In this document: positions 14,647-56,199 of the stretch, piece by piece
Numbering within the stretch: the first letter of the stretch is position 1
Layout of the letters: every line of letters begins with the position of its first letter
Assembly (NCBI GenBank): GCA_024654445.1
Contig: JANLHP010000017.1
Span: 33,009 to 97,008, forward strand
From: Candidatus Curtissbacteria bacterium
Lineage (GTDB): Bacteria; Patescibacteriota; Microgenomatia; Curtissbacterales; GWA2-41-24
DNA length: 64,000 nucleotides
Direction: 5' to 3'
Notes under the pieces: generated by a model
What the model saw: the letters and a program-made list of their open reading frames with translations, nothing else
What the model was told of the DNA's origin: nothing
Databases searched by the model: none
Translations under genes and position numbers: made by a program

Positions 14647-14736
14647 GTCATTCTGGAGACCGAAGGTCGATAGAATCTAAACGATTGAGATCCTATTCGT
14701 AGAAAAGCTCTGCTTATCGGTCGTTTCACTCCCTCC
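14647..14736. repeat. Palindromic intergenic repeat family R2, copy A (GTCATTCTGGAG...CGATAGAATCTA...CTCCAGGATGAC)
   Basis: Terminal inverted repeats gtcattctggag / ctccaggatgac; shared core with copies at 17146, 24477, 51897, 56146. Confidence 0.8.
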
Positions 14737-14748
14737 AGGATGACAGTT

Positions 14749-15864
14749 TTACGTTGTCACCTTCTTGAGTTTCCCGCTTCTGATTGCTGTTTTTATTTCC
14801 ATCGCTACGCGCCTCCCCATACTTATGCTTTGACCAAATAAATATCCACTGTAAGGAGTCGCGAAGATTCCGGGAGAACCTGGCATCCTAGGGGAAACGT
14901 CGAAAACAACTATTTCCTTTTTGGGTGGCCCTGGAGTAATGACGGATTGCAAACTGAACGGCCCAATGACCCCTGGGGGGTACATATTTTTTGCAGCCGC
15001 AACAAATTTTTCCCCGGCTTCAAATGCCCCTTCCAGCATTGATTCGAGAGTGGTAACTGCGATGTGTCCCGCTTCTTCGTATTTGATGTCGAAAAACTGT
15101 TGATCGTTAATGGATAATTGTTCGCTGGCCGGAAGTTTAAGAAACCCTTCAAGATTTGTTTGGCGTCTGGTGTCAGTTCCGATCAACTCAAGTCGATTTA
15201 AAATAGGGGAGTAGAAAAAATTAAAATTCACTTGAACGCCCAGAACGAATTCTTCAATCGTTGCAGCGTCTAAATCTTTTTTAGTTATTTTTCCTTCTTT
15301 AATTAATATCCTGGCTCTTTGCTGATATGAAGTGGGGGAGTTAGCTAAAAAGAAGGCTCTCTCGAAGCCTCTTTGCTTTTCGGGAACTTTAACAATTACT
15401 AATCTGTCGATCTCTTGCGGATTTTGATAGATCTTGGGAAAGCGAATAACAGCAGTTTTTAAAATGTCATATTGATTTCTTTCTTCTGTTCGCTCTTCGG
15501 CGCGGAGTAAAAACCTATTTCCAAATATTGGGATTTTAAAATCCTTCTCGATTGCGTCATAATCACCGATGTAAACCTCGAATGAGCGGTGGGGGATAAA
15601 AATTGCATTTTTGGCCTTTAGAATTTTCTGGAATCGGGGGTCTAAAATATCTTTAAACTTGTCGACATATAAAACTTCGTCCACACAGCCCGTAGGTCCT
15701 GAGCTTGCCGAAGGGCTTCTGCTAGTTGTCTTAAAGTACTTTGCGTAAGTCTTGTCTCTCCCCTCCTCTACTATTACAATAGTTGCCAACCCTTCGTCTT
15801 TAGCTCCTCGGCAGACGTCTAAAGCGCTATGGCTTCCTATGACTGCTACCGCTACCCTAGCCAT
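14749..15864 (-). CDS. PurP-like ATP-grasp protein (archaeal-type 5-formaminoimidazole-4-carboxamide ribonucleotide synthetase paralog, divergent)
   Basis: N-terminus VAVIGSHSALDV; IPHRSFEVYIG, FFYSP, SMGRRVAMEIK - same family as the ORF at 17216 but more divergent. Confidence 0.6.
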   Translation of the reverse strand: MARVAVAVIGSHSALDVCRGAKDEGLATIVIVEEGRDKTYAKYFKTTSRSPSASSGPTGCVDEVLYVDKFKDILDPRFQKILKAKNAIFIPHRSFEVYIGDYDAIEKDFKIPIFGNRFLLRAEERTEERNQYDILKTAVIRFPKIYQNPQEIDRLVIVKVPEKQRGFERAFFLANSPTSYQQRARILIKEGKITKKDLDAATIEEFVLGVQVNFNFFYSPILNRLELIGTDTRRQTNLEGFLKLPASEQLSINDQQFFDIKYEEAGHIAVTTLESMLEGAFEAGEKFVAAAKNMYPPGVIGPFSLQSVITPGPPKKEIVVFDVSPRMPGSPGIFATPYSGYLFGQSISMGRRVAMEIKTAIRSGKLKKVTT

Positions 15865-17137
15865 AGATTACCTCGTTTCTTGCGGGTCCGACACCGATAA
15901 AATCAACCGGCACACCCACAAATTCTTCAATCTTCTGGATATATTTTTTGGCGTTTTTGGGAAGGTCGGCAAATTTCCTGACTTTGGTGATGTCTTCTTG
16001 CCATCCCGGCAGAGTTTGATAAACCGGTTTACATTTTTCAAGTTTGTCCGCGTCGCCCGGAATGTATCCTACTTTTTTACCGTTTAGCAAGTAGCCTATG
16101 CAAATTTTAATTTCGTCAAATTCGGTTAAGATATCTAATTTTGTTACGGCAAGATGTTTTATGTTATTTACTTCACAAGCTGCTTTTAATAGGACGAGGT
16201 CCAGCCATCCAGGGTCTCTGACGCGGCCCGACGTTGTTCCCACTTCCCCACCCTTTTCTATAATTATTTTTCTTTCTTTGCCCTTTATTATTGTCGGCAT
16301 TGGGCCCGCGCCTACTCTTGTCGTATAGGCTTTTGTTATACCAATTGGGTGGTTAATAACAGAAGGGTTTAAATCGAACGACCGTAGAATCCCAACTAGC
16401 CCCGGGTTGGAAGAAGTAACGTACGGGTACGTACCCGCGTCGATATCAAGAAAATATCCTTGGGCGCCTTCGAATAGAACGTTTTGCTTGTTTTTAATCG
16501 CTTCATTTAATATTTCGTTGGTATCAGCAACATAAGGCTTAATGATTTTTGCGTAGTCGGTAAATTTTTGGTGAATTTCGCGGTAAGAAAGTTTTAGGTT
16601 GAAAAACTTATTTTGAACCGTGAGTTCTTCTTTTAATTTTTTAGCAAAATCGGCACTTACCAAGTCTTTAACCCGAAGACCAACTCTTTCGGTTCTGTCG
16701 GCGTATGCTGGGCCCACTCCCCTTTTCAGCGTTCCTAATTTGGAACTTCTCATTTGTTCTCGAAGCGCGTCGCGGAGCTTATGCCACGGCATAACTAAAG
16801 TTGCCCTATGATCGATTCTTAAATTTTTCCAAGAAACGCCAGCAGCTCTAAGTTGCTCCAATTCGTCGTCGATAAGCGATTCCAAATCGACCAAGACGTT
16901 TTTGCCAACTAAACATTTTGTTTTTGGGTTAAATATTCCGGAGGGCATTATATGAAGAGCAAAAGTGCCAAATTCGTTTTTGATCGTATGGCCTGTATTT
17001 GATCCGCCGTTAAATCTGGCAACAACGGCTGCCCTTTGTCCTAAATCGTCAATAAGCCGTCCTTTACCCGAGTCTCCCCAATCGACTCCGATTACGGCAG
17101 CAACACCTGACCAGTTTTTTAAATTATTACTTTTCAC
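15857..17137 (-). CDS. purA: Adenylosuccinate synthetase
   Basis: GVDWGDSGKGRLID P-loop, GGSNTGHTI, conserved C-terminus. Confidence 0.95.
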   Translation of the reverse strand: MKSNNLKNWSGVAAVIGVDWGDSGKGRLIDDLGQRAAVVARFNGGSNTGHTIKNEFGTFALHIMPSGIFNPKTKCLVGKNVLVDLESLIDDELEQLRAAGVSWKNLRIDHRATLVMPWHKLRDALREQMRSSKLGTLKRGVGPAYADRTERVGLRVKDLVSADFAKKLKEELTVQNKFFNLKLSYREIHQKFTDYAKIIKPYVADTNEILNEAIKNKQNVLFEGAQGYFLDIDAGTYPYVTSSNPGLVGILRSFDLNPSVINHPIGITKAYTTRVGAGPMPTIIKGKERKIIIEKGGEVGTTSGRVRDPGWLDLVLLKAACEVNNIKHLAVTKLDILTEFDEIKICIGYLLNGKKVGYIPGDADKLEKCKPVYQTLPGWQEDITKVRKFADLPKNAKKYIQKIEEFVGVPVDFIGVGPARNEVIYG

Positions 17138-17145
17138 TAAATTTT

Positions 17146-17208
17146 GTCATTCTGGAGACTGAAGGTCGATAGAATCTATTTGACCCTATCGCTTCGCTCC
17201 AGGGTGAC
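17146..17208. repeat. R2 palindromic repeat, copy B
   Basis: gtcattctggagactgaaggtcgatagaatcta...cgctccagggtgacgg. Confidence 0.8.
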
Positions 17209-17215
17209 GGTAATA

Positions 17216-18229
17216 TTAATCTAAAATTTTGTTTAACTTTTTTGTTCTAATCGCGTCTTTTATTTCCATTGCGATTCTTCTGCCTGTTGAAACGGGTTTA
17301 TCCCAGTAAAGGGCAGCGTATGGTGAACCATTTATAAATAAGTTAGTTCCAGCAACTATTCGGCAGGAGATTTCTATTATAGAAAATTTTTGCTCCGGAG
17401 TGATAATCGTCTCAAGACAAAATGGGCCCCATATTCCCTTTTTCATTAATTTTTGCGAAGTTGCCACAACTCTTTCCCCCATTTCGAACGCTTCTGCAAG
17501 AAGCGACTCTCGCAGAGTTAACGGTGAGTTTCCAACGACGACGAACGACGGTTCTATTCCAAGACCTGTTTGGTTTTGGACTGGGATTCGCCCTAGAGAG
17601 TCTACGTTAGACTCGTATCTTTTGTCTATTGATAAAATCTCGAGTTCTTTTGATATTGGGGAATAAAAATAATGAATATAAAGAGGAACGCCGATGACGT
17701 ACTCTTGGACGATAAACCTTTGTGGTTTAAACCCTTTTAGACGCCTTAGTAACTCTTTTTCGTTTTTTGCAAAAAAGTACCCTTCGCCTCCCGCTGCCCC
17801 AAAAGCTTTAACAATTACCGGGCTGTCTATCTTGTCTCCTTTTTTATAACGCTTTGGGACTGGAATGTCTGATTGTATTAGCCACTCTCTTTGCATTTTG
17901 CGGTCTGATTCCCAGTCTAAAACTTCTTTATTGCCAAAATAAGGAACTTTCATTTTTTTGTTTTCGTCTATACCCAGATAAGCGACAAAAGATCCGTGAG
18001 GAATTATGATGCAGTTTTCTTTTATTAAAGTTTTTTCTACTTGTGGAAATTCCGCGTATGTGGGGATTTCTATTATCTTGTCGATGAAGTTAAAGCGTTT
18101 GTAGAGGTCTAGTCTGTTTGAGGTCGCGACCAGAACTGTTTTGAATTTTTCGTCGTGTGCGCCTTTTAAAATTTGGAGAGCAGAGTGGGAACCGAGAGTT
18201 GCTATTTTGTAGGATTTTCGTCCCGCCAT
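17216..18229 (-). CDS. purP: 5-formaminoimidazole-4-carboxamide-1-beta-D-ribofuranosyl 5'-monophosphate synthetase (archaeal-type, formate/ATP-dependent)
   Basis: Near-collinear to recalled archaeal PurP: IATLGSHSALQILKGA, YKRF, IPHGSFVAY, VPYFGN, LDWESDR, IHYFYSP, DKRYESN, GPFCLE, GRRIAMEIK. Confidence 0.8.
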   Translation of the reverse strand: MAGRKSYKIATLGSHSALQILKGAHDEKFKTVLVATSNRLDLYKRFNFIDKIIEIPTYAEFPQVEKTLIKENCIIIPHGSFVAYLGIDENKKMKVPYFGNKEVLDWESDRKMQREWLIQSDIPVPKRYKKGDKIDSPVIVKAFGAAGGEGYFFAKNEKELLRRLKGFKPQRFIVQEYVIGVPLYIHYFYSPISKELEILSIDKRYESNVDSLGRIPVQNQTGLGIEPSFVVVGNSPLTLRESLLAEAFEMGERVVATSQKLMKKGIWGPFCLETIITPEQKFSIIEISCRIVAGTNLFINGSPYAALYWDKPVSTGRRIAMEIKDAIRTKKLNKILD

Positions 18230-18253
18230 CTTTGTATTCTACAGACTCTGAGG

Positions 18254-19735: not shown

Positions 19736-19825
19736 ATAATTATTACGAAGTTAACCGAGGGTTGCGATTTTGTAACTTTTTCGTCCCGCCGCCCGAAATT
19801 AAACTTGCAAGTCTTAATCTTTCGC

Positions 19826-20944: not shown

Positions 20945-21030
20945 GATTGTCCGAAATTGCCAAGACTTTTTGATGCGAGTTTATTGGCAAATTCTGCTGA
21001 CCATTTTAACGATTTGTCTTTTAAAATCCC

Positions 21031-21861: not shown

Positions 21862-21882
21862 ATTTTTTTGGGGGCAGGAGAA

Positions 21883-22254
21883 CTAATCACTACTATTAGT
21901 TGTGAAAGCATATGCTATGACATTTGAGTGGCTAACTCTTACCATTAAGTCTGGGTTGTCTCTATGATGAATAACGACCATTTCCTCTCCTGTTACTACT
22001 ACTCTGTCGGGCTCAACATATTCCCAATTTGCAAAAGTTTTGTCGGGCGATTTAACAACAACAAGATGATCAAAGTAGCCACCAAAAAGTATGCCGACTT
22101 TGCGGTCTATTTGGTTACAAATAACTGTGATTTCTGCAGGGGAAAATATGTCTAGTACTTTTATCTCGCCTCTGTTCAAAGTGAAATCTCTTTCAGCTCT
22201 GTTTTGACCGATGAGTCTGTCTACTTCTACAGGGGCCATATTAATTTTTAACAA
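21883..22254 (-). CDS. Hypothetical protein (123 aa)
   Basis: Intact ORF, co-directional, tight spacing; no recognisable motif. Confidence 0.4.
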   Translation of the reverse strand: MLKINMAPVEVDRLIGQNRAERDFTLNRGEIKVLDIFSPAEITVICNQIDRKVGILFGGYFDHLVVVKSPDKTFANWEYVEPDRVVVTGEEMVVIHHRDNPDLMVRVSHSNVIAYAFTTNSSD

Positions 22255-22284
22255 AAGGTAGACTTATCTGTCAATAGAGGGAAA

Positions 22285-22561: not shown

Positions 22562-23062
22562 GACTTTTGGGAAGAAGGGCGATTAGGTTTGGAAGAGGGG
22601 CAAGCCCCCCTTCCAGCTTTCCCCCACTCGGGGACGGCTGGTCGATAATTTTTTATAATTCCAGATCAGGAAAGTCCGGACAGCAGGAATCAAGGAACGG
22701 ATTTTTGATCCGACGCGTAAGCGCTAGTTTCTTGAGTACCGAAAGGGAAAAAGGACGGGTCCTGAATTGACAGGATTCGAGAGCCACAGTGACGAAAAGA
22801 TCCTAAGTCGTAAGATATGGATTGAAAGTGAAACGGTCTCCTTCGTTCTGCTTTTGCAGAACTTCGGCGGACTAAAGGCAATCCTTCTTGCTGCAACTCA
22901 GAATTGAGCCGCAATTACCATGATTCCGGGAGGCTCTAAGTAGAGGCATTCTGCATAAAGCAGAACGGAGTGACATTTACATCACTTCGAGACAGATGAT
23001 CGCACAAACCCCACGTCGCTAAAGCTATGAGGGGTGAAACAGAATCCGGCTTACTCTCTTCC
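22562..23062 (+). ncRNA. rnpB: RNase P RNA (bacterial type A), ~500 nt with insertions
   Basis: P4 5' strand AGGAAAGUCCGGAC at 22667-22680 and P4 3' strand ACAGAAUCCGGCUUA at 23038-23053; P1/P2 pairing CUUUUGGGAAGAAG (22564-77) with CUCUUCCCAAAAG (23049-61); overlapping ORFs 22567..22770(+) and 22690..22914(-) are spurious. Confidence 0.8.
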
Positions 23063-23068
23063 CAAAAG

Positions 23069-24097
23069 TTAAACTTCTTGAAGTTCTTCTTCCAGTTTTC
23101 TGTCTTCGACTAAAAACTCTTTAAAAATAATTCTTCCAGCGACAAGCAGCGGGATTGCTAGAAATGCTCCCCCGACTCCTGCTAATTTTGCCCCAATCAA
23201 AAGCGCGATTATAACAACAGTCGGCTGAAGACCTACGGCTCTGGACATAACCATTGGTACGATAAGATGATTTTCCAGCTGTTGAACCACCAGGAAAAGC
23301 GCGGCAACGCCAAGACCGACGACTGGAGAAATTGTGAGACCAACTAAGATTGCAGGAACGGCTGCAATAATTGGACCAATAATTGGGATTATTTCCAAAA
23401 TTCCGGTAACGAGCGCAAGGGGCAGCGCGTATGGAATCCCCAGAACCCTCAAGCCAATATAAGTTATTACTCCGACAATTATGGAAAGAGTTAATTGTCC
23501 CCTAACCCATTTACCTAAGCCGCCTTCAACTTTTGCGATTACGTCTTTTACTTTCTTTTCTTGTCTACCGGAAAACGGGGAAGCGATAAGTCTGACGACG
23601 CTTTTCCACTCCAAGAGAAGGTAGAAGGTAAACACAAGGAAAGTTACTATTAAAAATATGCTAGAAAGTATTGCGCTCGAGATTGCGATTAAATTGCCGC
23701 CTATGGCACGAGCTTGAGATGCAACTACGCTGGAAACATTTTCTACCGGTATTTTGTTAAATATAAGGAAGTCATTGATTGTGCCAGTTATTTGTGGAAG
23801 CTTTGTAACGAATTCTGTCGTTTGAGATATTAATGGTGGGAAGATAATTCCGATTGCAAAAGAAATCAATGCAATAAGTATTACGTAAACGATTAATACA
23901 GAAAGGGCTCTCGGGACCCTTCTTTGTGTCAGGTATTCAACCGGGCCAAGAAGAGCAGAGAGAAGAATCAATGATATAAAGATGAGGATAATTATTTCTC
24001 TTATTTGGACAAGAAACCAAAGTCCGATTAATAAACTTACGGCGAAAATTATTGTTTTATACGAAATCTCGACTCTAACGGTTCTGTCGTCTTTCAT
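23069..24097 (-). CDS. AI-2E family transporter (PerM/YhhT, UPF0118)
   Basis: 8 TM helices; conserved GLxxxxPxLxA-like C-terminal region; 342 aa. Confidence 0.7.
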   Translation of the reverse strand: MKDDRTVRVEISYKTIIFAVSLLIGLWFLVQIREIIILIFISLILLSALLGPVEYLTQRRVPRALSVLIVYVILIALISFAIGIIFPPLISQTTEFVTKLPQITGTINDFLIFNKIPVENVSSVVASQARAIGGNLIAISSAILSSIFLIVTFLVFTFYLLLEWKSVVRLIASPFSGRQEKKVKDVIAKVEGGLGKWVRGQLTLSIIVGVITYIGLRVLGIPYALPLALVTGILEIIPIIGPIIAAVPAILVGLTISPVVGLGVAALFLVVQQLENHLIVPMVMSRAVGLQPTVVIIALLIGAKLAGVGGAFLAIPLLVAGRIIFKEFLVEDRKLEEELQEV

Positions 24098-25114
24098 CTA
24101 TTTGAAGTATATATCAGCTTTGTGTGTGATCGCAATTTTTTCATCTAGCTTATTTTCCCAACCTTTTTGACTGATATCGAAGAGTTCGATTGATTTAAAC
24201 TTATTAAACCAGGTTTTTTGTCGGCGGATAAGGCGGTGTAGGTCTCCTTTTGCAAGGTCGACTGATTCTTCTTTCGACGTTTTCCCTAAAATATAGTCTG
24301 CAAGACGCCTGTATTCCAAACCAAGCGAGTTAATCCATTCAGGGCTAATCCCGCCTTTTATTAGACTTTGAATTTCTTCAATCATTCCATGCTCAAGACG
24401 AGCCTTGAAGGATGCGTCGGCTCTTTTAAAAAGAAAATTATTAGGCGCGGTGAGACCGATGATGAGCACTTTTTCTGTCATCCTGGAGCGTAGTGGAACG
24501 GAGCGATGGGATCTAGATTCTATCGTGGTCGATGCCACTCCAGAATGACGACTTTTGCTTGGCGTCTCTATGGATACCTCTATAGCGCGGATGAGCCGGC
24601 GTGGATTTTTTCTGTCGGATTCGTTCATGGACTTTGCCTTTTGAGGATTTAGTTTTCCTAACTTTAGATAAAGCTCCTGCCTTGATAACTTTTCCAGTTT
24701 TGCGCGTAGTTTTTGGTCAGCTTTTATTCCTAGCGTGTCCATACCGTCCACAAGTGCTTTGATATAAAAACCTGTTCCCCCAACAACAATTGGCATTTTT
24801 TTCAGTTCAGTGATCTGAATTACTGAACTATTGGCGAATTTTAAAAAGTCTGCGACCGTGAATTGTTTGCCAGGTTCTATTAGATCGAAACCGCGGATTT
24901 TTACTCCGTCAACGATCCAATAACCGTTGTGTTTTTCAACCTTAGATTTAAAGCTTACTTTACCGGTTCCGATATCTAGACCTTTATAAACCTGTCGGGA
25001 GTCGGCAGAGATTAATTCACCGTTTGCACATTTGGCTAGTTTTATTCCAAGATCAGTTTTGCCGGTTGCCGTCGGACCATATAGTACCAACATCGTAGAT
25101 TTGCCAGTTTTCAT
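24098..25114 (-). CDS. miaA: tRNA dimethylallyltransferase; carries an in-frame 74-nt insertion of the R2 palindromic repeat
   Basis: P-loop GPTATGKT, SADSRQVYKGLDIGTGK; repeat at 24477-24550 translated as RHSGVASTTIESRSHRSVPLRSRMT between RAIEVSIETPSKS and EKVLIIGLTAPNN. Confidence 0.85.
   Translation of the reverse strand: MKTGKSTMLVLYGPTATGKTDLGIKLAKCANGELISADSRQVYKGLDIGTGKVSFKSKVEKHNGYWIVDGVKIRGFDLIEPGKQFTVADFLKFANSSVIQITELKKMPIVVGGTGFYIKALVDGMDTLGIKADQKLRAKLEKLSRQELYLKLGKLNPQKAKSMNESDRKNPRRLIRAIEVSIETPSKSRHSGVASTTIESRSHRSVPLRSRMTEKVLIIGLTAPNNFLFKRADASFKARLEHGMIEEIQSLIKGGISPEWINSLGLEYRRLADYILGKTSKEESVDLAKGDLHRLIRRQKTWFNKFKSIELFDISQKGWENKLDEKIAITHKADIYFK
24477..24550. repeat. R2 palindromic repeat, copy C (inverted relative to A/B), inside the miaA CDS in frame
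   Basis: gtcatcctggagcg...tagattctatcg...ctccagaatgacg. Confidence 0.8.
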
Positions 25115-43507: not shown

Positions 43508-44050
43508 TTATTGCGCAGTTTTGACTGCTTTGCCTGCCTTTCTTCTTACAATCTCACCGGCGTATTTGATACCTTTCCCTTTGTAAGGCTCAGGCGGTCT
43601 TACTCTTCTGATTTTAGCGGCTACTTCACCGACCAGAACTTTATCGGCGCCGCTTATTATTATTTTGTTTTCTTTGGCTTCGATATTTATACCTTTGATT
43701 TGTTCAAAGGTCACGGGATGCGAATATCCAATATTCAATACCAGACTCTCGCCTTGTTTTGCTGCGCGGTAACCAACACCAACGAGTTCCAAAACTTTTT
43801 CGTGCCCATCTGTTACACCCTTTACCATATTTGCAATAACGCTTCTGGTTAACCCGTGAAGAGATTTAGCAAATTTTGTTTCTGAAAGGCGATTTACGTC
43901 TACTTTCCCGTCATTCACATCGACTTTTATTTCTGGACGAATTTGGAATGACAATTCACCCTTTGGGCCCACTACGTTAATTTGAGAATCCATCACGGAA
44001 ACCGTAACGCCTTGTGGGATCGGTACTGGTTGTTTTCCTATCTTTGACAT
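43508..44050 (-). CDS. rplF: 50S ribosomal protein L6
   Basis: MSKIGKQPVPIPQGVTV. Confidence 0.95.
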   Translation of the reverse strand: MSKIGKQPVPIPQGVTVSVMDSQINVVGPKGELSFQIRPEIKVDVNDGKVDVNRLSETKFAKSLHGLTRSVIANMVKGVTDGHEKVLELVGVGYRAAKQGESLVLNIGYSHPVTFEQIKGINIEAKENKIIISGADKVLVGEVAAKIRRVRPPEPYKGKGIKYAGEIVRRKAGKAVKTAQ

Positions 44051-44110
44051 AATATGCTCCTTTCAGTCGCAAGAATCTCAAAGTTCAAAGTGCAAAGTTC
44101 AAAATTGAGG
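44051..44110. promoter_or_regulatory. Conserved leader motif R3 upstream of rplF (minus-strand sense TTTGAACTTTGCACTTTGAACTTTGAG...TGCGACTGAAAGGAGCA-ATG)
   Basis: Same 45-60 nt motif with SD GAAAGGAG recurs at 44547..44607 and 46880..46945. Confidence 0.6.
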
Positions 44111-44170
44111 AAGCCAAAAGATTTTTGGCTTTTTATTTTGATATTTGATATTTGATATTTGATATTTTTG
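44111..44170. repeat. Hairpin (gccaaaagatttttggc) followed by microsatellite (TTTGATA)x4-5
   Basis: gccaaaagatttttggctttttattttgatatttgatatttgatatttgatattttt. Confidence 0.8.
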
Positions 44171-44171: not shown

Positions 44172-44546
44172 TTACCATACAATACATATCACTTCTCCCC
44201 CTAATTTTTTAGACCTTGCATCGCTTCCCGTCATAACACCTTGAGGTGTAGAAACAATTGTTATGCCTCTTCCGCCTTTTATAGACTTAATATCTTTGCT
44301 TTTTGTGTAAACTCTAAGACCTAATTTAGAGACTTTTTTGACTTCTTTTAACTTTGGTTTATTGTTTTCGTATAAGAGACCTACTTCGAGTTTAGTGTCT
44401 GTTTTTTGAACGCTAGCGATAAATTTACTTTTTTCTAAAACTTTAGCAATCTCAAATTTGAATTTTGAATGCGGCATAGAAACGGTTTGTTTCCGGGCCA
44501 TATAACCATTTTTTATCGCAACTAACATGTCTGCTATTGGATCCAC
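44172..44546 (-). CDS. rpsH: 30S ribosomal protein S8
   Basis: MDPIADMLVAIKNG. Confidence 0.95.
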   Translation of the reverse strand: MDPIADMLVAIKNGYMARKQTVSMPHSKFKFEIAKVLEKSKFIASVQKTDTKLEVGLLYENNKPKLKEVKKVSKLGLRVYTKSKDIKSIKGGRGITIVSTPQGVMTGSDARSKKLGGEVICIVW

Positions 44547-44607
44547 TGTTTTGCTCCTTTCTGTCGCAAAAATTTTAAATTTAAAATTTCAAATTTAAAG
44601 TTAATTA
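44547..44607. promoter_or_regulatory. R3 leader motif upstream of rpsH
   Basis: minus-sense ...TTTAAATTTGAAATTTTAAATTTAAAATTTTTGCGACAGAAAGGAGCAAAACA-ATG. Confidence 0.55.
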
Positions 44608-44793
44608 TTACCATGATGATTTTTTCACTCCTGGCACTTCTCCTTTATGAACAAGTTCCCTGAAACAAAGCCTGCACATACCAAATTTTCTTAGATAAGC
44701 CCTTGGCCTGCCGCATAGACGGCAACGGTTTCTGTGCCTTACTTCAAATTTCTGCTTTTTATCGTTTTTAATAACTTTAGATTTTCTTGCCAT
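44608..44793 (-). CDS. rpsN: 30S ribosomal protein S14 type Z (Zn-binding)
   Basis: [23 protein letters not shown]; 61 aa. Confidence 0.95.
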
Positions 44794-46471: not shown

Positions 46472-46879
46472 TTATCCTTTTGTTACTATTTTTGTCTTAA
46501 GTGGTAACTTATGAGCTGCAAGTCTCATTGCCTCCATGGCAACTTTTTCCTCTACTGCTCCCATTTCAAAAATGATTACTCCAGGTCTTACAACTGCAAC
46601 GTATTGGTCAACGTCACCTTTACCAGAACCCATACGGGTTTCTGCTGGCTTTTTGGTAACAGGTTTGTCTGGAAAAATCCTAATCCAAATACGCCCACCT
46701 CTTTTGGTATAGTGAGTCATTGCGCGCCTTGCCGCTTCAATTTGCCTGGCAGTCACCCAACCCGCCGCCTGACTTTTGAGTCCATATGAACCAAAGGCGA
46801 GGACGCTGCCTCTTATCGAGACGCCACCCATTTTCCCTCTAAATTGTTTCCTAAATTTTGCTCTTTTTGGCGCTAACAT
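46472..46879 (-). CDS. rplP: 50S ribosomal protein L16
   Basis: [17 protein letters not shown]. Confidence 0.95.
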
Positions 46880-46945
46880 GGTTTGCTCCTTTCAGTCGCA
46901 GAAAGTTTAAAGTTCAAAGTGCAAAGTTCAAAGTTAAGGAGGTTA
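46880..46945. promoter_or_regulatory. R3 leader motif upstream of rplP; followed (46990..47030) by tttgatttttgacttttgatttttgatg short tandem repeats
   Basis: minus-sense TTTGAACTTTGCACTTTGAACTTTAAACTTTCTGCGACTGAAAGGAGCAAACC-ATG. Confidence 0.6.
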
Positions 46946-48438: not shown

Positions 48439-48443
48439 TTTGA

Positions 48444-48539: not shown

Positions 48540-48556
48540 ATTTTTAAAATTAATTG

Positions 48557-51259: not shown

Positions 51260-51532
51260 TTAAGTTTCCCAAAAAGTACTAAAAAAGCAGGACTCCTTGA
51301 AATTAATCACATTCCTGTGAGTTTCAGGTGCCCCACCAATTAACGTCTCTCGTTAATCGATTATTATTTAATTGTTTTTTCGCCTCTCGATGTACTCATT
51401 ACATCTTTAGCTCAATATCAACTCCAGCCGGGAGTTCCAAATGAGTCAAGGAATCAACTGTTTTTAGAGAGTGAAACACTATCAAACAACGACTTTGATA
51501 GTAGTGAAACTCTCGCAAGACAGTTGACGAAC

Positions 51533-51841
51533 TTACATCTTAAGTTCTATATCCACACCTGCTGGCAATTCAAGATGAGTAAGTGAGTCAATTGTCTTAT
51601 TCGTTGGTTCGATGATGTCAATAAAGCGTTTATGGATTCTCATTTCGAATTGCTCTCTCGCGTCTTTGTCTGTATGAGGCGAAGTGAGTACGGTGAATTT
51701 TCCGATTTTGGTCGGGAGTGGAACTGGCCCGGAAATTTTGGCTCCGGTTGAGAGCCCAGTATTTATAATATCCCGACAAGCAATATCGATTACCCTGCCG
51801 TCGTACGCTTTAAGTTTTATTCTAATTCTACCTTTAGGCAT
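51533..51841 (-). CDS. rpsJ: 30S ribosomal protein S10
   Basis: [14 protein letters not shown]. Confidence 0.95.
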
Positions 51842-51896
51842 CTTTTAATGTGCTCCTTTTTTCCCTTCGACTACGCTCAGGGAATATTTACTTTTT

Positions 51897-51953
51897 GTCA
51901 TCCTGAACTCGATTCAGGATCCAGATTCTATCGCTTCGCTCCAGAATGACAGT
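51897..51953. repeat. R2 palindromic repeat, copy D (tuf-rpsJ spacer)
   Basis: gtcatcctgaactcgattcaggatccagattctatcgcttcgctccagaatgacag. Confidence 0.8.
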
Positions 51954-52191
51954 TATTGGTCGAGAAATTCTGTAGTGCAAAAAGAGCCGAGAGTTAATTA
52001 ACTTAAGCGGTTAGGCTTGAAGATTAAACTGGTTGAATTCATGTAATGTGTTCTTTCTTCGACTCGACTCGAACAAAATCACTCGAACAATTGTAACAGT
52101 GCAAATTGTACAAAAAAAGACCTCTTTGTGCAACTTATCTGCAAGCTTCTGTTAGGCTTGTAGTAAGTGGCTGTTTGAGATCTTGTCTTAT

Positions 52192-53373
52192 TTAGGCAAC
52201 TATCTTGCTTACAACGCCGGCACCAACAGTGTGGCCGCCTTCACGAATTGCGAATCTAAGGCCCTCGTCCATAGCAACTGGAGCAATTAACTTGACCTTC
52301 ATTTTGACGTTGTCGCCAGGCATAACCATTTCGGTTCCTTCAGGAAGTGTGGCTTCACCTGTGACGTCTGTGGTTCTAATGTAGAATTGTGGCCTGTAAC
52401 CAGTGAAAAATGGTGTGTGCCTTCCGCCTTCTTCTTTAGTTAAGATGTAGACTTCTGCTTCGAATTCGGTGTGAGGTGTAGCGGTACCCGGTTTTGCCAA
52501 AACTTGTCCTCTTTCAACATCGTCTTTTTCAACGCCTCGAAGAAGAACGCCGACGTTGTCACCGGCTTGACCTTCATCGAGTTGTTTTCGGAACATTTCG
52601 ACACCTGTAACGACAGTTTTCTTGGTTGGTCTGATTCCAACAATTTCGATTTCGTCGTTAACTTTTACGATTCCCCGCTCTACTCTTCCTGTAACAACTG
52701 TTCCTCGGCCTTTAATAGAAAAGACGTCTTCTACAGGCATAATAAATGGTTTGTCGAGGTCTCTTACTGGTGTTGGAATCTTTTCGTCGACTGCTGCCAT
52801 CAGATCTTCGATCGCTTTTTCCGATTCTGCATCGCCTTCGAGGGCCTTTTTTGCGGATCCGCGGATGATTGTTGCGTTTTTACCGTCGAATTCGTATTTG
52901 TCCAAAAGCTCCCTGACTTCTAGTTCGACCAAGTCGAGCAGTTCAGGGTCGTCTACCATGTCGACTTTGTTGAGGAAAACGACGATCGCTGGAACATTGA
53001 CCTGTTTGGCAAGAAGTACATGCTCTCGTGTTTGAGGCATAGGGCCGTCTGGTGCGCTAACAACTAGAATCGCACCATCCATTTGTGCTGCACCTGTAAT
53101 CATGTTTTTGATGTAATCAGCGTGACCCGGGGCGTCGATGTGGGCGTAGTGCCTTTTTTCTGTTTCGTATTCTACGTGGGTAATATTAATAGTAATTCCA
53201 CGTTGTCGCTCTTCTGGAGCGCTGTCGATCTGCTCAAAGCTTCGGGCTTCGGCGTGACCTTTTTTGGCAAGAACAGTGGTAATCGCACTTGTAAGCGTGG
53301 TTTTACCGTGGTCGACGTGACCAATTGTTCCAATATTTACGTGCGGTTTAGTTCTTTCAAATTTTTCAGCCAT
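52192..53373 (-). CDS. tuf: Elongation factor Tu
   Basis: [19 protein letters not shown]; 393 aa. Confidence 0.99.
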
Positions 53374-53478
53374 GTTTCTTTTTAAAACAACAGATCAGCC
53401 AAAAGAGGCTGATTCGTTTGCTAAGTTTAATATAAAAACTTTCCCAAATGCAAGTAGTTAAAACGTTTTATGTCGGTT

Positions 53479-55626
53479 TTAACTTTCTTTGCTTTCGCCT
53501 CTATTTTTAGCAACTATTTTATCTGCTATATTACTTGGTACTTCTTCGTAGTGGGATGGTTCCATATAAGCGGACCCTCGACCTTGAGTCATTGAGCGGA
53601 GAGTTGTGACGTAGCCGGACATTTCTGCAAGAGGAACGATGGCGTTGATGATGACGCTGTTGCCATGGTGGTCAGAACCGTGAATTTGAGCCCGTTTTGC
53701 GGAAAGATCACCAATGACATCGCCCATAAATTCTTCGGGGATTGTTACTTCAACTTTCATAATTGGCTCGATTAGCACGAGTTCGGCGTTTTTTGCGGCC
53801 GCTTCTAAGGCCATGCTGCCCGCGATTTTAAAGGCGATGTCACTTGAATCAACGTCGTGGAAACTACCGTCGTAGACTGCTGCTTTTACGTCAACAAGCG
53901 GATAGCCTGCAAGAACTCCCATGTCGAGTTTTTCCTTTACACCTTTTTCGACTGAGCCGATAAATTCCTGAGGAATCGCACCACCTTTAATTTCGGAAAC
54001 AAATTGAGAACCTTCACCTCTTGGTTGCGGCTCGACCCTGATGAAACAATGTCCGTATTGACCGCGGCCGCCGGATTGTTTGATGTATTTGCCTTCGCCC
54101 TTACCGGTTTGCTTGATCGTTTCGCGGTAAGCAACTTGTGGGCTACCGATATTTGCAGAAACTTGGAATTCCCTTTTCATCCTGTCTACCAAAATTTCTA
54201 GGTGGAGTTCACCCATACCTGAAATAATAGTTTGGCCTGTTTCCGGATCTCCTTTTATACGGAATGTTGGATCTTCTTCGGAAAGTCTGCCCAGAGCATA
54301 ACCGAGTTTTTCCTGGTCGGCTTTAGTTGTCGGTTCGATAGCAAGAGAAATAACAGGTTCTGGGAAAGAAATATTTTCGAGAACAATAGGGGCTGCGGGG
54401 TCGCAAAGAGTGTCACCAGTTACAGTATTTTTGAGCCCGACGACGGCGACGATTTCACCGGCGTATGATTCCGGGATTTCTTCCCTTGTGTTTGCGTGCA
54501 TCAAAAGAATTCTTCCGATTCGCTCTGTATTCTTTTTAGTGGAGTTCATAACGGAAGCACCGGCCTTCATAACTCCAGAATAAACCCGAACGTAAGTAAT
54601 TTTACCGACATGGGGGTCGATTTGGATTTTGAAAGCAATTCCACAAAATGGAGAATCTTTATCTTGTTTTCTTTTTTCCGCCTCTCCCGTTTTTGGATTG
54701 ATACCTTCGATTTCCGGAATATCCATAGGGGACGGCAAGTATTCAACAACTGCGTCAAGAAGTGGCTGGACGCCTTTGTTTCTAAGGCTAGATCCTGCCA
54801 GAACAGGGACAATTTTGTAATCGATTACTGCTTTTCTTAAAACCTTTTTGAGTTCTTCGACAGATAATTCCTCGCCTGCGAGATATTTCTCGAGTAGTGT
54901 GTCGTCACCTTCGGCAATTTTTTCAATAAGTTCGTGTCTGTATTTTTCGACGTTTTCTTTTTCGCTATCTGGAATCGGTACTTCTGTAAATTTCATTCCG
55001 GATTTATCGCCTTCATCCCAGGTGTATGCTTTTTGAGTTAAAAGATCGATTATGCCTTTAAAATCATTTTCTTTCCCAAGCGGAAGATTATAAGGATAAG
55101 CAGGGGCTCCAAGTTTATCACGAATGGACTTTAAGGTAGCGTAGTAGTCTGCGCCAAGTTTATCCATTTTGTTAACAAAACATACTCTTGGAACTTTGTA
55201 TTTGTCAGCTTGTCTCCAAACCGTTTCAGATTGCGACTGAACTCCTTCTTCGGCATCCAAGACTGTAACGCCACCGTCCAAAACGCGAAGCGATCTTTCG
55301 ACTTCTGCGGTGAAGTCAACGTGTCCTGGCGTGTCGATAATATTGATTCTAGTTTCTACGTCTTTATAAGGACCGGACTTTGGAGTCCAAAAAGTAGTGA
55401 CAGCTGCAGAAACTATGGTAATTCCTCTTTCTCTTTCCTGCTCCATCCAATCTGTTACCGTTGTTCCTTCATCGATGTTGCCGAGTTTGTAAGATCTACC
55501 TGTGTAATAGAGAATTCGCTCTGTAGTCGTCGTTTTGCCCGCGTCGATGTGGGCAATAATGCCAATGTTCCTTATTCTATCCAGCGGATACAACCTATTT
55601 GTTTTTTCCTGTTGAGCTTGGGCCAT
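53479..55626 (-). CDS. fusA: Elongation factor G
   Basis: AHIDAGKTT, DTPGHVDF, NKMD; 715 aa. Confidence 0.99.
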   Translation of the reverse strand: MAQAQQEKTNRLYPLDRIRNIGIIAHIDAGKTTTTERILYYTGRSYKLGNIDEGTTVTDWMEQERERGITIVSAAVTTFWTPKSGPYKDVETRINIIDTPGHVDFTAEVERSLRVLDGGVTVLDAEEGVQSQSETVWRQADKYKVPRVCFVNKMDKLGADYYATLKSIRDKLGAPAYPYNLPLGKENDFKGIIDLLTQKAYTWDEGDKSGMKFTEVPIPDSEKENVEKYRHELIEKIAEGDDTLLEKYLAGEELSVEELKKVLRKAVIDYKIVPVLAGSSLRNKGVQPLLDAVVEYLPSPMDIPEIEGINPKTGEAEKRKQDKDSPFCGIAFKIQIDPHVGKITYVRVYSGVMKAGASVMNSTKKNTERIGRILLMHANTREEIPESYAGEIVAVVGLKNTVTGDTLCDPAAPIVLENISFPEPVISLAIEPTTKADQEKLGYALGRLSEEDPTFRIKGDPETGQTIISGMGELHLEILVDRMKREFQVSANIGSPQVAYRETIKQTGKGEGKYIKQSGGRGQYGHCFIRVEPQPRGEGSQFVSEIKGGAIPQEFIGSVEKGVKEKLDMGVLAGYPLVDVKAAVYDGSFHDVDSSDIAFKIAGSMALEAAAKNAELVLIEPIMKVEVTIPEEFMGDVIGDLSAKRAQIHGSDHHGNSVIINAIVPLAEMSGYVTTLRSMTQGRGSAYMEPSHYEEVPSNIADKIVAKNRGESKES

Positions 55627-55717
55627 ATTTTTATTGTGTCAATGTGTCAAAGTATCATGTATCACTGTTTATGCTTTGACACTTTAAGTCTTAGACGCTT
55701 TGATTCATTTTAATCTC

Positions 55718-55993
55718 TTACTTGGAAAGCTTTTCTTTGGTGGAGTTAGCTTGACCGATTCCAATTGGAGGACGTTCTATCTTTCTTATTTCTGCTTTAA
55801 TTTCGGCAACCATGGCCCGAAGCACAGAAACTTCTTCGTCCGCGAGTTCCCAGGCGGCGTTTTCGTTCCAAGCAGCACCAGAATCTTGATAAGCTTCTCC
55901 ATAACGAGTCAGAGCATCTTTGAGTTTGACCTCCTCGAGCTCTTTTAGCTTTGTCCTAAGTTGTTTTAACTTCTGTCCTTTTGATAATGCCAT
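55718..55993 (-). CDS. Hypothetical small coiled-coil protein inserted between rpsG and fusA (start taken at MALSKGQKLK; track ORF extends into R1 repeat)
   Basis: 91 aa, Lys/Glu heptad-like N-half, acidic Trp-containing middle (AAWNENAAWELADEE); no recognisable family. Confidence 0.45.
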   Translation of the reverse strand: MALSKGQKLKQLRTKLKELEEVKLKDALTRYGEAYQDSGAAWNENAAWELADEEVSVLRAMVAEIKAEIRKIERPPIGIGQANSTKEKLSK

Positions 55994-56001
55994 GTTTCTG
56001 A

Positions 56002-56134
56002 TTTTAAGGGACAACCTAATAAGCAAAGCTTGCGGTCCTCGTCCTTCGGACTGCGGGCCTAACGGTTTTCCCTTAATATTCCCTTTCCCTTAATGGAGAA
56101 ATTTAAACTAGCAAAGCTAGATTTAAATTTCGAT
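56002..56134. repeat. R1 repeat, copy 5 (with extra internal UUCG-tetraloop hairpin gtccttcggac)
   Basis: ttttaagggacaacctaataagcaaagcttgcggtcctcgtccttcggactgcgggcctaacggttttcccttaatattccctttcccttaatggagaaatttaaactagcaaagctagatttaaattt. Confidence 0.85.
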
Positions 56135-56145
56135 TGTATTGCACT

Positions 56146-56199
56146 GTCATTCTGAATGAAATGAAGAATCTAGATCCTTCGCTGCGCTCAGGATGACAT
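56146..56199. repeat. R2 palindromic repeat, copy E
   Basis: gtcattctgaatgaaatgaagaatctagatccttcgctgcgctcaggatgacat. Confidence 0.75.

What the first reader, a model, noticed from the sequence alone, without database searches (positions are those of the whole stretch)
14647..56199. R2: palindromic GTCATTCTGGAG...CTCCAGAATGAC repeat family, 5 copies with variable internal cargo
Copies lie at 14647-14736, 17146-17208, 24477-24550 (inverted), 51897-51953 and 56146-56199. All are bounded by a 12-13-nt terminal inverted repeat (gtcat[tc]ctgga[ga] / [ct]tccag[ag]atgac). Most share an internal CGATAGAATCTA / TAGATTCTATCG core. Length varies from 54 to 90 nt because the middle differs between copies. 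Terminal inverted repeats with a variable core is the signature of a MITE or Rickettsia-RPE-like selfish element. Two copies flank purA (purB|purP and purA|purP junctions), one is in the tuf-rpsJ spacer and one is in the fusA 5' UTR next to an R1 copy.
Basis: seen in the sequence. Interest (0 to 1): 0.7.

Follow-up and report, generated by a model that had tools for sequence, protein, structure and literature searches.

The report
Paired hairpin repeats of Ssn nucleases
The five "R2" copies are back-to-back pairs of a small DNA hairpin repeat that in many bacteria marks the cutting site of a tiny single-strand-DNA nuclease (Ssn); the kind is already known, but here it occurs in an ultra-small Candidatus Curtissbacteria genome, and one copy is read through as part of a protein.

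Summary
Five copies sit at the stated places, and a covariance model finds exactly ten half-sites in the 64 kb. The anatomy is not "terminal inverted repeat plus cargo". Each copy is a head-to-head pair of ~28-58-nt hairpin units: (C/T)GTC tag, 5-bp stem ATYCT/AGRAT, a conserved G.T/G.A/A.G block, a variable apical mini-hairpin, then an invariant C. Compensatory changes support pairing within each half, not between the termini. The same unit occurs across Patescibacteria, Clostridia, Fibrobacter, Gammaproteobacteria and others. In 8 of 12 independent loci, including a Curtissbacteria genome, a ~95-aa GIY-YIG nuclease gene lies exactly between the two halves. This matches the published Ssn/SRM system (Chenal 2025) and the CGTC-tagged REP superfamily (Di Nocera 2013), which includes Neisseria dRS3 and Rickettsia RPE-4/-6. 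R2 is therefore a gene-less doublet of Ssn-type hairpins. Copy 3 lies in frame inside miaA, in a predicted disordered loop, and is shared with other Curtissbacteria. Copy 2 is absent from a syntenic relative. No ssn gene lies in the window, and the published SRM search string misses these units. Verdict: a new member of a known kind, of moderate interest.

The parts
14646..14745 (.). R2 copy 1: head-to-head doublet. It fills the purP|purB spacer, starting 3 nt after the purP stop and ending 11 nt before the purB ATG.
14646..14679 (+). Copy 1, half A: CGTC-ATTCT-GGAG-ACCGAAGGT-CGAT-AGAAT-CTA
   Evidence: CM hit, E 5.5e-7; the MFE fold is the expected hairpin
14687..14745 (-). Copy 1, half B: TGTC-ATCCT-GGAG...AGGAT-C with a long, partly duplicated apical insert. 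The CM sees only 14708-14745.
   Evidence: E 0.48; read by eye (stem ATCCT at 14690-14694, AGGAT at 14737-14741)
17145..17209 (.). R2 copy 2: doublet filling the purP2|purA spacer, 6 nt after the stop and 7 nt before the GTG start. It is absent from the syntenic relative L150.
17145..17178 (+). Copy 2, half A (ATTCT/AGAAT stem)
   Evidence: CM, E 3.9e-7
17180..17209 (-). Copy 2, half B: CGTC-ACCCT-GGAG-CGAAG-CGAT-AGGGT-CAA (compensated stem variant)
   Evidence: CM, E 1.7e-10
24476..24550 (.). R2 copy 3: doublet inside the miaA ORF, in frame. It encodes residues 188-213 of the 338-aa MiaA.
24514..24550 (-). Copy 3, half A (ATTCT stem; apical hairpin TGGCATCGACCA)
   Evidence: CM, E 4.7e-7
24476..24515 (+). 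Copy 3, half B (ATCCT/GGGAT stem, one mismatch)
   Evidence: CM, E 5e-8
51896..51951 (.). R2 copy 4: doublet in the tuf|rpsJ spacer, 54 nt upstream of the rpsJ ATG
51922..51951 (-). Copy 4, half A: TGTC-ATTCT-GGAG-CGAAG-CGAT-AGAAT-CTG (the family consensus)
   Evidence: CM, E 1.2e-11
51896..51923 (+). Copy 4, half B: TGTC-ATCCTGAA-CTCGA-TTCAGGAT-CCA. A perfect 8-bp stem, 5-nt loop and CCA tail, which is the classical CGTC-REP form.
   Evidence: z -3.57; E 0.05; for the published description
56145..56198 (.). R2 copy 5: doublet of the GA-type variant in the rpsG|fusA spacer, next to an R1 repeat
56145..56172 (+). Copy 5, half A: TGTC-ATTCT-GA-AT-GAA-AT-GA-AGAAT-CTA
   Evidence: CM, E 1.3e-3
56171..56198 (-). 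Copy 5, half B: TGTC-ATCCT-GA-GC-GCA-GC-GA-AGGAT-CTA
   Evidence: CM, E 8.1e-7
24098..25114 (-). miaA, the host gene of copy 3 (TIGR00174, E 1.2e-46). The insert maps to the only internal low-confidence loop of the model.

Best explanation
Each R2 copy is a head-to-head doublet, with the tags on the outside, of an Ssn-related hairpin motif. Di Nocera would call this a CGTC/TGTC-tagged REP; Chenal would call it an SRM.

The unit is (C/T)GTC, then an imperfect hairpin, then an invariant C. The hairpin has a 5-bp stem ATYCT/AGRAT, a conserved G.T + G.A + A.G block, and a variable apical mini-hairpin. The unit is directional: only the strand carrying the GTC tag forms the purine-rich hairpin. In a doublet, each DNA strand therefore carries one such hairpin at its 5' end.

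In other genomes the same two halves enclose a ~95-aa single-domain GIY-YIG nuclease gene (ssn). The start codon abuts the left half and the stop codon lies in or just before the right half. R2 is the same doublet without the gene, that is, the non-autonomous form.

By analogy with the characterised Neisseria SsnA, the hairpin would be bound only when the DNA is single-stranded (replication, DNA uptake, possibly cruciform extrusion) and nicked a few nucleotides 5' of the tag.

Shown here: the anatomy, the covariation, the cross-phylum distribution, the nested ssn gene (including in Curtissbacteria), presence/absence between related genomes, and one tolerated in-frame insertion.

Inferred: that a Curtissbacteria Ssn acts on these five copies, and how the copies spread. 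A nick followed by repair or copying is the likeliest route; no transposition chemistry is known for this fold.
For: 1. Ten halves forming five doublets, and no solo halves in the window.
2. Pairing within each half. Five stem variants are all Watson-Crick (ATTCT/AGAAT 132, ATCCT/AGGAT 49, ACTCT/AGAGT 8, ATGCT/AGCAT 5, ACCCT/AGGGT 3) and mispaired combinations are rare. In pattern hits where both positions were free, T..A occurs 114 times, C..G 42, C..A 2 and T..G 0. The count of structure pairs gives 97.7% of cells paired, 24 double-sided changes, and 0 of 500 shuffles as high. Apical segments are self-complementary with unrelated sequences (mean 2.0 nested pairs against 0.44 when shuffled).
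3. In partner halves not constrained by the search, the GTC tag is present in 29/29 and the C after the palindrome in 29/29. SsnA mutagenesis found these two features critical for cleavage and binding respectively (PMC11893778).
4. The only gene family found in more than four loci that spans several phyla is a PF01541 GIY-YIG protein of 90-100 aa. It is bracketed by a same-strand half <=35 nt upstream and an opposite-strand half <=30 nt downstream (or overlapping the stop) in 8 of 12 independent loci. These include Curtissbacteria L170 and Roizmanbacteria L162. Invariant Y7, Y18 and E65 have the same spacing as the catalytic Y6, Y17 and E64 of SsnA.
5. The literature describes the same system: NTS = CGTCATTCCCGCGMAVGCGGGAATCYRG, the NTS-ssnA-NTS arrangement, and ssDNA-only, strand-specific cleavage upstream of the hairpin. 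CGTC/TGTC-tagged REPs have stems starting with AT, are mostly tags-out dimers and often heterodimers, and include intragenic copies.
6. Doublets here are 5/5 heterodimers; in the other loci they are 26/30 heterodimers, and 30 are tags-out against 2 tags-in.
7. Presence/absence: the purP2|purA junction of syntenic L150 has no spacer and no element. miaA of L149 and L150 lacks copy 3, while L148 has it.
Against: - No ssn homologue lies in the 64-kb window (tblastn, E<1e-3). The rest of this genome could not be read.
- The published degenerate SRM search string has 0 matches in the window, so R2 units lie outside the operational definition used by Chenal et al.
- Membership of the flanked proteins in cd10448, and homology to Neisseria SsnA, was not tested directly. 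The nearest solved structures are UPF0213 proteins, E 9e-8.
- Folding energies of single halves are not better than shuffles in 9 of 10 cases. The structural evidence is covariation only.
- Population variants of two ssn loci show one fixed position each, so there is no sign of recent movement.
- No biochemical data exist for this subfamily.
Confidence: 0.72

Rival explanations
1. Orphan relics. The doublets descend from an Ssn/SRM element, but this genome no longer encodes the nuclease. The copies are inert spacer filler, or a tolerated peptide, decaying neutrally.
For: - No ssn in the window.
- One half of copy 1 carries a disrupting insert and one half of copy 3 has a stem mismatch.
- 52 kb from other Curtissbacteria (L149-L151) hold no halves at all, so the family is patchy.
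Against: - Eight of ten halves keep tag, stem and trailing C intact.
- The intragenic copy is more conserved between species than its host gene: 90% against 45-59% at the DNA level. Neutral decay would not give this.
- Another Curtissbacteria genome has an intact ssn bracketed by R2-type halves.
Confidence: 0.15
2. RNA-level elements. The doublets act in the transcripts of the operons they sit in, as long hairpins that control mRNA stability, processing or translational coupling, independently of any nuclease.
For: - Four copies lie between co-directional genes of operons. Copies 1 and 2 fill the whole spacer, 3-6 nt after a stop and 7-11 nt before the next start.
- The whole doublet can fold as one long hairpin (copy 2 z -4.45).
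- REPs are known to act this way in E. coli (established knowledge; discussed in PMC3733652).
Against: - No Rfam match, even at E<=1.
- No terminator-like site at any copy.
- Compensatory changes support the half-hairpins, not the long inter-half stem. In most copies the inter-half stem carries systematic T.G and A.C or other mismatches.
- One copy is coding.
- The purine-rich structured strand of the two halves lies on opposite strands, which fits DNA recognition rather than a single transcript.
- Characterised SsnA does not bind RNA.
Confidence: 0.06
3. REP/REPIN doublets mobilised by a RAYT (an IS200/IS605-type HUH tyrosine transposase).
For: - The architecture (imperfect hairpin with an unpaired tag, inverted doublets, clusters) is that of REPINs and BIMEs.
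Against: - The tag is YGTC, not GTAG.
- Di Nocera found no RAYT flanked by CGTC repeats.
- The recurrent bracketed gene is GIY-YIG.
Confidence: 0.04
4. A classical MITE: a deletion derivative of an insertion sequence, with 12-13-nt terminal inverted repeats recognised by a DDE transposase supplied in trans.
For: - Terminal inverted repeats ending TG...CA-like (TGTCAT...ATGACA).
- Variable length.
- Presence/absence polymorphism.
Against: - No target-site duplication seen at the five copies on reading the flanks.
- Halves occur alone and in direct tandem.
- Covariation is internal to each half.
- The full-length unit encodes a 95-aa GIY-YIG nuclease, not a transposase.
Confidence: 0.03

Closest known systems
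Ssn nuclease / SRM repeat system (Neisseria SsnA with NTS = extended dRS3; Chenal et al. 2025, PMC11893778)
   Same: - A directional hairpin repeat with a (H)GTC flank just 5' of the palindrome and a C just 3' of it.
- A stem beginning ATTC.
- A repeat-ssn-repeat arrangement around a ~94-aa single-domain GIY-YIG gene.
- Hundreds of gene-less copies elsewhere.
- Wide phylogenetic spread.
   Different: - R2 units have a longer, imperfect stem (5 bp + G.T + tandem G.A/A.G + 2 or more bp) and a variable apical hairpin.
- They do not match the published SRM search string.
- They occur in Patescibacteria, Clostridia and Fibrobacter, none of which is named in the main text of the paper.
- In the window they occur only as doublets.
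- No nuclease gene is in the window.
- The Neisseria function (modulating transformation) is untested here.
CGTC-tagged REP superfamily (Di Nocera et al. 2013, PMC3733652)
   Same: - An unpaired CGTC/TGTC tag.
- A stem starting A-T, T-A.
- A short 3' tail.
- Predominantly tags-out (HH) dimers, often heterodimers.
- Intragenic in-frame copies.
- No RAYT association.
- One half (51896-51923) fits the classical form exactly: 8-bp stem, 5-nt loop, CCA tail.
   Different: - The described families have 8-9-bp perfect stems and 4-5-nt loops. Most R2 halves do not.
- The tail is CTN rather than CCA.
- The paper found no dedicated enzyme; here and in Chenal 2025 it is a GIY-YIG nuclease.
Rickettsia palindromic elements (RPE; Ogata et al. 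2000, cited from my own knowledge; RPE-4 and RPE-6 assigned to CGTC-4 and CGTC-1 in PMC3733652)
   Same: A palindromic repeat inserted in frame in a conserved housekeeping gene, tolerated as an extra surface peptide, in a reduced genome.
   Different: - Only 1 of 5 copies is intragenic.
- Sequence similarity to any RPE was not tested.
- The host is a free-living or episymbiotic CPR bacterium, not an obligate intracellular alphaproteobacterium.
REP / REPIN / BIME with RAYT transposases (E. coli, Pseudomonas)
   Same: Small imperfect hairpins with an unpaired tag, inverted doublets as the common unit, mostly extragenic, and an enzyme gene bracketed by its own repeats.
   Different: The tag is GTAG, and the enzyme is a HUH Y1 transposase that forms a covalent intermediate. 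Neither is present here.
Bacterial MITEs (e.g. Correia/NEMIS, RUP, Nezha)
   Same: Short, non-coding, bounded by inverted repeats, dispersed, and polymorphic between relatives.
   Different: MITEs have target-site duplications and a parent IS with a DDE transposase. R2 has neither, and its inverted 'ends' are self-folding units.

Membership tests
Ssn-related motif (SRM) repeats, Chenal 2025 | 20-50-nt imperfect palindrome able to form a hairpin | tested here: met
   Covariation within halves. The expected MFE hairpin appears in 7 of 10 halves, though the energies are not significant.
Ssn-related motif (SRM) repeats, Chenal 2025 | Conserved oriented flank (H)GTC immediately 5' of the palindrome (critical for cleavage) | tested here: met
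   GTC is invariant in A6. It is present in 29/29 unconstrained partner halves. The preceding base is T 109, C 35, A 12, G 2.
Ssn-related motif (SRM) repeats, Chenal 2025 | Cytosine immediately 3' of the palindrome (critical for binding) | tested here: met
   29/29 unconstrained partner halves. The column is at least 90% C in A6. All ten window halves have it.
Ssn-related motif (SRM) repeats, Chenal 2025 | Match to the published search string HGTCWYN(0-2)YYVSBRHN(0-5)WNVSBRGN(0-2)RNCYNB | tested here: not met
   0 matches on either strand of the window. The R2 stem is longer and less G+C-rich than the string allows.
Ssn-related motif (SRM) repeats, Chenal 2025 | Repeats flank an ssn gene (single-domain ~94-aa GIY-YIG) on both sides | tested here: met
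   Met for the family: 8 of 12 independent ssn loci have the canonical bracket, including Curtissbacteria L170 and Roizmanbacteria L162. Not met inside this window, which has no ssn.
Ssn-related motif (SRM) repeats, Chenal 2025 | The flanked protein belongs to the Ssn clade (CDD cd10448) and is homologous to N. meningitidis SsnA | tested here: inconclusive
   Pfam GIY-YIG, E 1e-17 to 1e-21. Length 90-100 aa. Invariant Y7/Y18/E65 have the spacing of catalytic Y6/Y17/E64. The nearest PDB entries are UPF0213 proteins. No CDD library or SsnA sequence was available.
Ssn-related motif (SRM) repeats, Chenal 2025 | Strand-specific cleavage of single-stranded DNA a few nt upstream of the motif; no activity on dsDNA or RNA | not testable with these tools
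   Needs biochemistry.
CGTC-tagged REP superfamily, Di Nocera 2013 | Unpaired terminal CGTC (or TGTC/CCTC) tag | tested here: met
   TGTC 109, CGTC 35 of 158. Window: six TGTC and four CGTC.
CGTC-tagged REP superfamily, Di Nocera 2013 | Stem of 8-9 bp starting with complementary A-T, T-A; loop of 4-5 nt; 3-nt tail near CCA | tested here: inconclusive
   The start of the stem fits: A-T in 38/43, then T-A 35 or C-G 7. Stem length and loop are met exactly only by 51896-51923. Other halves have an imperfect, longer stem with a 3-nt loop or an apical hairpin. The tail is C-T-N.
CGTC-tagged REP superfamily, Di Nocera 2013 | Tags-out (HH) dimers predominate; heterodimers common; intragenic units exist | tested here: met
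   5/5 HH heterodimers in the window. In the loci, 30 HH against 2 TT, and 26 heterodimers against 4 homodimers. The miaA copy is intragenic.
MITE | Target-site duplication flanking the element | tested here: not met
   Flanks of the five copies share no direct repeat, judged by reading.
MITE | Parent insertion sequence with the same ends encoding a DDE transposase | tested here: not met
   The only gene bracketed by the ends is a GIY-YIG nuclease.
REP/REPIN-RAYT | GTAG tag and a Y1 (HUH) transposase gene flanked by the repeats | tested here: not met
   The tag is YGTC. No such ORF cluster was found.
Rickettsia RPE | In-frame insertion in conserved genes, with the peptide tolerated at the surface | tested here: met
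   Copy 3 in miaA. Residues 186-211 are the only internal segment with pLDDT <50 in a model of mean pLDDT 84. Sequence relatedness to RPEs was not tested.

The most novel reading that the evidence does not exclude
The half-ssn-half unit may be an autonomous mobile element of a class with no described transposition chemistry: a GIY-YIG single-strand nickase nested in the loop of its own hairpin doublet. On this reading, R2 doublets are its non-autonomous derivatives, still being copied or homogenised in Patescibacteria. That would explain three things: why an in-frame copy in miaA is more conserved than the gene around it, why almost identical 30-nt halves occur in unrelated phyla, and why the doublets are nearly always heterodimers.
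Probability: 0.3. Interest if true: 0.65.

Novelty: new member of a known kind. Interest (0 to 1): 0.42.

Why it matters
- It assigns an unexplained repeat in a candidate-phyla-radiation genome to a system characterised only in 2025.
- It shows that the published SRM search string misses a whole subfamily, the extended-stem GGAG...CGAT type. That subfamily is abundant in Patescibacteria, Clostridia, Fibrobacter and Gammaproteobacteria MAGs, so Ssn/SRM systems are probably more widespread than counted.
- It offers a compact pair for testing a new ssDNA-nuclease specificity: Curtissbacteria Ssn P0327 and its own halves.
- For annotation: R2 doublets create spurious ORF extensions and an extra 26-residue loop in MiaA. 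They occupy whole intergenic spacers in purine and ribosomal operons of a very small genome.
- If the elements are still active, they would be a rare case of selfish DNA proliferating in, and writing itself into the proteins of, a streamlined episymbiont.

Tried and rejected
- **Rfam.** Neither the gathering threshold nor E<=1 gave a match at any copy.
- **Literature search by 12-mers.** Only unrelated primers were found.
- **Looking up this genome by exact proteins.** It failed, so the rest of the MAG could not be scanned for ssn.
- **Published SRM regex.** No hits in the window.
- **Thermodynamic support for single halves.** Not significant. I rely on covariation instead.
- **Terminator and promoter scans.** No terminator lies at any copy. 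Two promoter-like matches overlap the ATGACA terminus but are consensus noise.
- **RAYT search.** Negative.
- **ORF upstream of purQ in the window (21883-22254).** I checked it because ssn sits upstream of purQ in L170. It is not a GIY-YIG protein.
- **Population variants of two ssn loci.** They showed no positional polymorphism.
- **Supplementary tables of both key papers.** They held no repeat sequences I could compare.
- **A correction.** My first estimate of chance matches for the genome-wide pattern (0.2, in the notebook) was wrong. The right figure is about 2 for 596 Gb, still far below the more than 150 observed.
- **Long-hairpin model.** I considered that the terminal 12-mers pair with each other as the functional stem. 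I rejected it because the two ends usually differ at positions that are compensated within each half.

Full report
**1. Observation**

Reading the five places shows the described sequences. GTCATYCTGRA with up to one mismatch occurs 11 times against 3.35 expected, and 0 of 100 shuffles reach that number. Ten of those hits are the two ends of the five copies. Oriented and aligned, the copies share TGTCATTCTGGAG...CGATAGAATCTAGAT...CGCTCCAGGATGACA.

The window is about 40% G+C. Its genes are nearly all on the minus strand. Copy 3 is different: it lies inside the miaA ORF and is translated in frame. The closest MiaA in the protein database is 100% identical and comes from a Candidatus Curtissbacteria MAG, so the window is from a member of the Patescibacteria/CPR.

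**2. Anatomy: two hairpin units, not TIR plus cargo**

My own estimate is that chance would give about two matches.

Listing the 154 oriented matches shows a modular unit:
- (C/T)GTC
- ATYCT
- GGAG
- a variable segment
- CGAT
- AGRAT
- C

The unit occurs alone, in direct tandem (L043, L058, L061, L138), or most often as an inverted pair with the GTC ends outward.

The pyrimidine in ATYCT always matches the purine in AGRAT of the same half. Counts are T..A 114, C..G 42, C..A 2 and T..G 0, although the search left both positions free. With all five stem positions free, five variants appear and each is fully complementary: ATTCT/AGAAT 132, ATCCT/AGGAT 49, ACTCT/AGAGT 8, ATGCT/AGCAT 5, ACCCT/AGGGT 3.

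The two halves of one doublet usually carry different variants: 26 of 30 in the loci and 5 of 5 in the window. Pairing between the termini would therefore be systematically mismatched, whereas pairing within a half is perfect.

On 43 distinct 30-nt units the hairpin ....((((((..((...))..))))))... is 97.7% paired. It has 24 double-sided changes at two pairs. No shuffle out of 500 reaches this, and slid controls reach at most 52% paired. The variable segments are themselves small hairpins of unrelated sequence, for example GGCC-GAA-GGCC, CCATG-TATT-CATGG and TTTTC-GCTA-GAAAA.

Nearest-neighbour energies of single halves are not better than shuffles, except for one perfect hairpin. The evidence for the fold is therefore comparative, not thermodynamic.

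A covariance model built from these units finds the ten halves as its ten best hits in the window. Nine have E between 1e-11 and 0.05, the degenerate right half of copy 1 has E 0.48, and the next hit has E 0.58.

**3. The associated gene**

I clustered all ORFs of 100 aa or more from the 120 loci. Two families recurred in more than four loci. One is a ~95-aa protein present in nine loci from Komeilibacteria, Saccharibacteria, other Patescibacteria, Gammaproteobacteria MAGs, Fibrobacterales and Clostridia. The other is confined to Clostridia MAGs. The cross-phylum protein is a GIY-YIG catalytic domain, Pfam E 1e-17 to 1e-21.

Its position is very regular. A half on the coding strand ends 0-35 nt before the start codon. 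A half on the other strand begins at or within 30 nt of the stop codon. This holds in L064, L092, L113, L120, L126 and L147.

It also holds in Roizmanbacteria L162, where ...GATAGAATCT is followed directly by ATG and the right half overlaps the stop codon. It holds again in Curtissbacteria RIFCSPLOWO2_01_FULL_42_26 (L170 1549-1923), just upstream of purQ and purM. Four further loci (L060, L084, L124, L135) have halves or whole doublets next to the gene in other arrangements.

The family is large. There are 9,877 representatives at 50% identity with E<=1e-3, and 3,063 with E<=1e-10. The window itself has no homologue, and the rest of its genome was not retrievable.

**4. What is known**

Di Nocera et al. 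2013 (PMC3733652) defined a superfamily of REPs with an unpaired CGTC or TGTC tag. Their stems begin with A-T and T-A and they have a 3-nt tail. They occur mostly as dimers with the tags outside, often as heterodimers, and sometimes inside genes. The superfamily includes Neisseria dRS3 and Rickettsia RPE-4 and RPE-6, and it was reported to lack a dedicated transposase.

Chenal et al. 2025 (PMC11893778) then showed that a 94-aa single-domain GIY-YIG protein, SsnA, binds the extended dRS3 (NTS, CGTCATTCCCGCGMAVGCGGGAATCYRG). It binds only as single-stranded DNA and only on one strand, and it cuts a few nucleotides upstream. The three bases before the palindrome matter most for cutting, and the C after it matters most for binding.

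They also showed that ssn homologues across phyla are flanked by such SRM repeats in an IS-like repeat-gene-repeat arrangement. R2 halves keep exactly those two critical features: 29 of 29 each in halves not constrained by my search. The bracketed proteins have invariant Y7, Y18 and E65 with the spacing of the catalytic Y6, Y17 and E64 of SsnA.

I therefore read R2 as gene-less head-to-head doublets of Ssn-type hairpins.

Two membership points are not satisfied or not tested. The published degenerate SRM string finds nothing in the window, because the R2 stem is longer, imperfect (G.T plus tandem G.A/A.G) and A+T-richer. I also could not test assignment of the proteins to cd10448. The nearest solved structures are UPF0213 proteins.

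The main text of the paper does not mention Patescibacteria, Fibrobacter or Bacillota. No other paper in the library treats SsnA or such repeats in CPR genomes.

**5. Behaviour in Curtissbacteria**

L150 is a syntenic relative with miaA, an AI-2E transporter, purL/Q/M and purP2-purA-purP. Its purP2 stop and purA start are adjacent (19358|19360). The window has a 78-nt spacer there, almost entirely made up of copy 2, and a GTG start for purA.

miaA in L149 and L150 lacks copy 3. L148 and the proteins P0002, P0003, P0004, P0006 and P0007 (57-65% identical) have it at the same site and in the same frame.

Between the window and L148, the element is 66/73 identical while the flanking coding DNA is 29/64 and 32/54 identical. 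The encoded peptide is 72-81% identical against 56-61% for the rest of the protein.

An AlphaFold model of the window's MiaA is confident overall (mean pLDDT 84). Besides the chain ends, the exception is residues 186-211, which are the inserted peptide, lying between a helix and a strand. The insertion is thus tolerated as a disordered loop. Why it is better conserved than its host gene is unexplained.

About 52 kb from three other Curtissbacteria contigs (L149-L151) hold no halves, so abundance is lineage-specific.

**6. Rivals**

- **Classical MITE.** Disfavoured by the lack of target duplications on reading the flanks, by solo and tandem halves, by within-half covariation, and by the nature of the full-length unit.
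- **RAYT-driven REPIN.** Disfavoured by the tag, by the published lack of association, and by a negative, admittedly weak, tblastn.
- **Purely RNA-level role.** Not excluded as a side effect, since copies 1 and 2 fill whole operon spacers. However, there is no Rfam match, no terminator signature, no orientation rule, and the covariation does not support the long stem.
- **Orphan relics.** This remains a real possibility for this particular genome.

**7. Verdict**

R2 is a new subfamily and host range of a known kind of system (CGTC-REP / Ssn-SRM), not a new kind of element. The mechanism at these five sites is inferred by analogy. How such elements spread is unknown for the whole family.

Noticed in passing
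All copies lie in spacers of the ribosomal-protein and rpoBC operons. One abuts R2 copy 5 (D1/D2).
   Followed up: no
window 44047-44111, 44544-44608, 46876-46940, 57522-57557: A third repeat family, GTCGCAAGAATCTCAAAGTTCAAAGTGCAAAGTTCAAAG, upstream of ribosomal-protein genes (D3/D4).
   Followed up: no
window 51860-51886 (-): A tag-less SRM-like hairpin, TTCCCTGAGCGTAGTCGAAGGGAA, between R2 copy 4 and the rpsJ start. It is unique in the window.
   Followed up: partly
window 22628-23069 (+): Match to bacterial RNase P RNA class A over the full model, but far below the gathering score (45 against 100 bits, E 8.6e-11). Probably a divergent CPR RNase P RNA.
   Followed up: no
window 14749-15864 and 17216-18229 (-): Two paralogous purP-type genes (formate-dependent FAICAR synthetase, typically archaeal) flank purA.
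   Followed up: no
L149 about 10540-10590; proteins P0005, P0008, P0017, P0055: The same MiaA linker holds other repeat-derived inserts in other Curtissbacteria: tandem AAGTATCA octamers (KYQVSSIKYQ) and SEESKPTSEV-type peptides. The linker is therefore a hotspot for repeat insertion.
   Followed up: partly
window 24476-24550 versus L148 10560-10660: The in-frame R2 doublet is 90% identical at the DNA level between two species whose flanking miaA sequence is 45-59% identical. Gene conversion, re-insertion and selection on the DNA all remain open.
   Followed up: partly
L099 5464-5682 (-): A weak GIY-YIG-like ORF (34% identity to an Ssn query, E 2e-6) lodged between tRNA-like sequences in a Curtissbacteria contig. 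It may be an endonuclease gene in or next to a tRNA gene.
   Followed up: no
L045 585-664: An R2-type doublet on a contig binned as a Bathyarchaeia archaeon. This could be horizontal transfer or mis-binning.
   Followed up: no
L001-L027, e.g. L021 8924-9429: 27 IMG/VR 'viral' contigs carry doublets of the same superfamily (54 covariance-model hits). One has five doublets in tandem. None carries an ssn homologue.
   Followed up: partly
window 55627-56437: The rpsG-fusA spacer is unusually long (811 nt). It holds an R1 copy, R2 copy 5 and an unannotated 102-aa ORF at 55718-56026 on the minus strand.
   Followed up: no
P0339, P0342, P0346, P0349 and many others: Many database Ssn-like proteins are 120-170 aa with the domain at the C-terminus. 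This is probably start-codon miscalling that reads through the upstream hairpin half, as in my own ORF extensions (e.g. VILERAQRSDRIS...).
   Followed up: no
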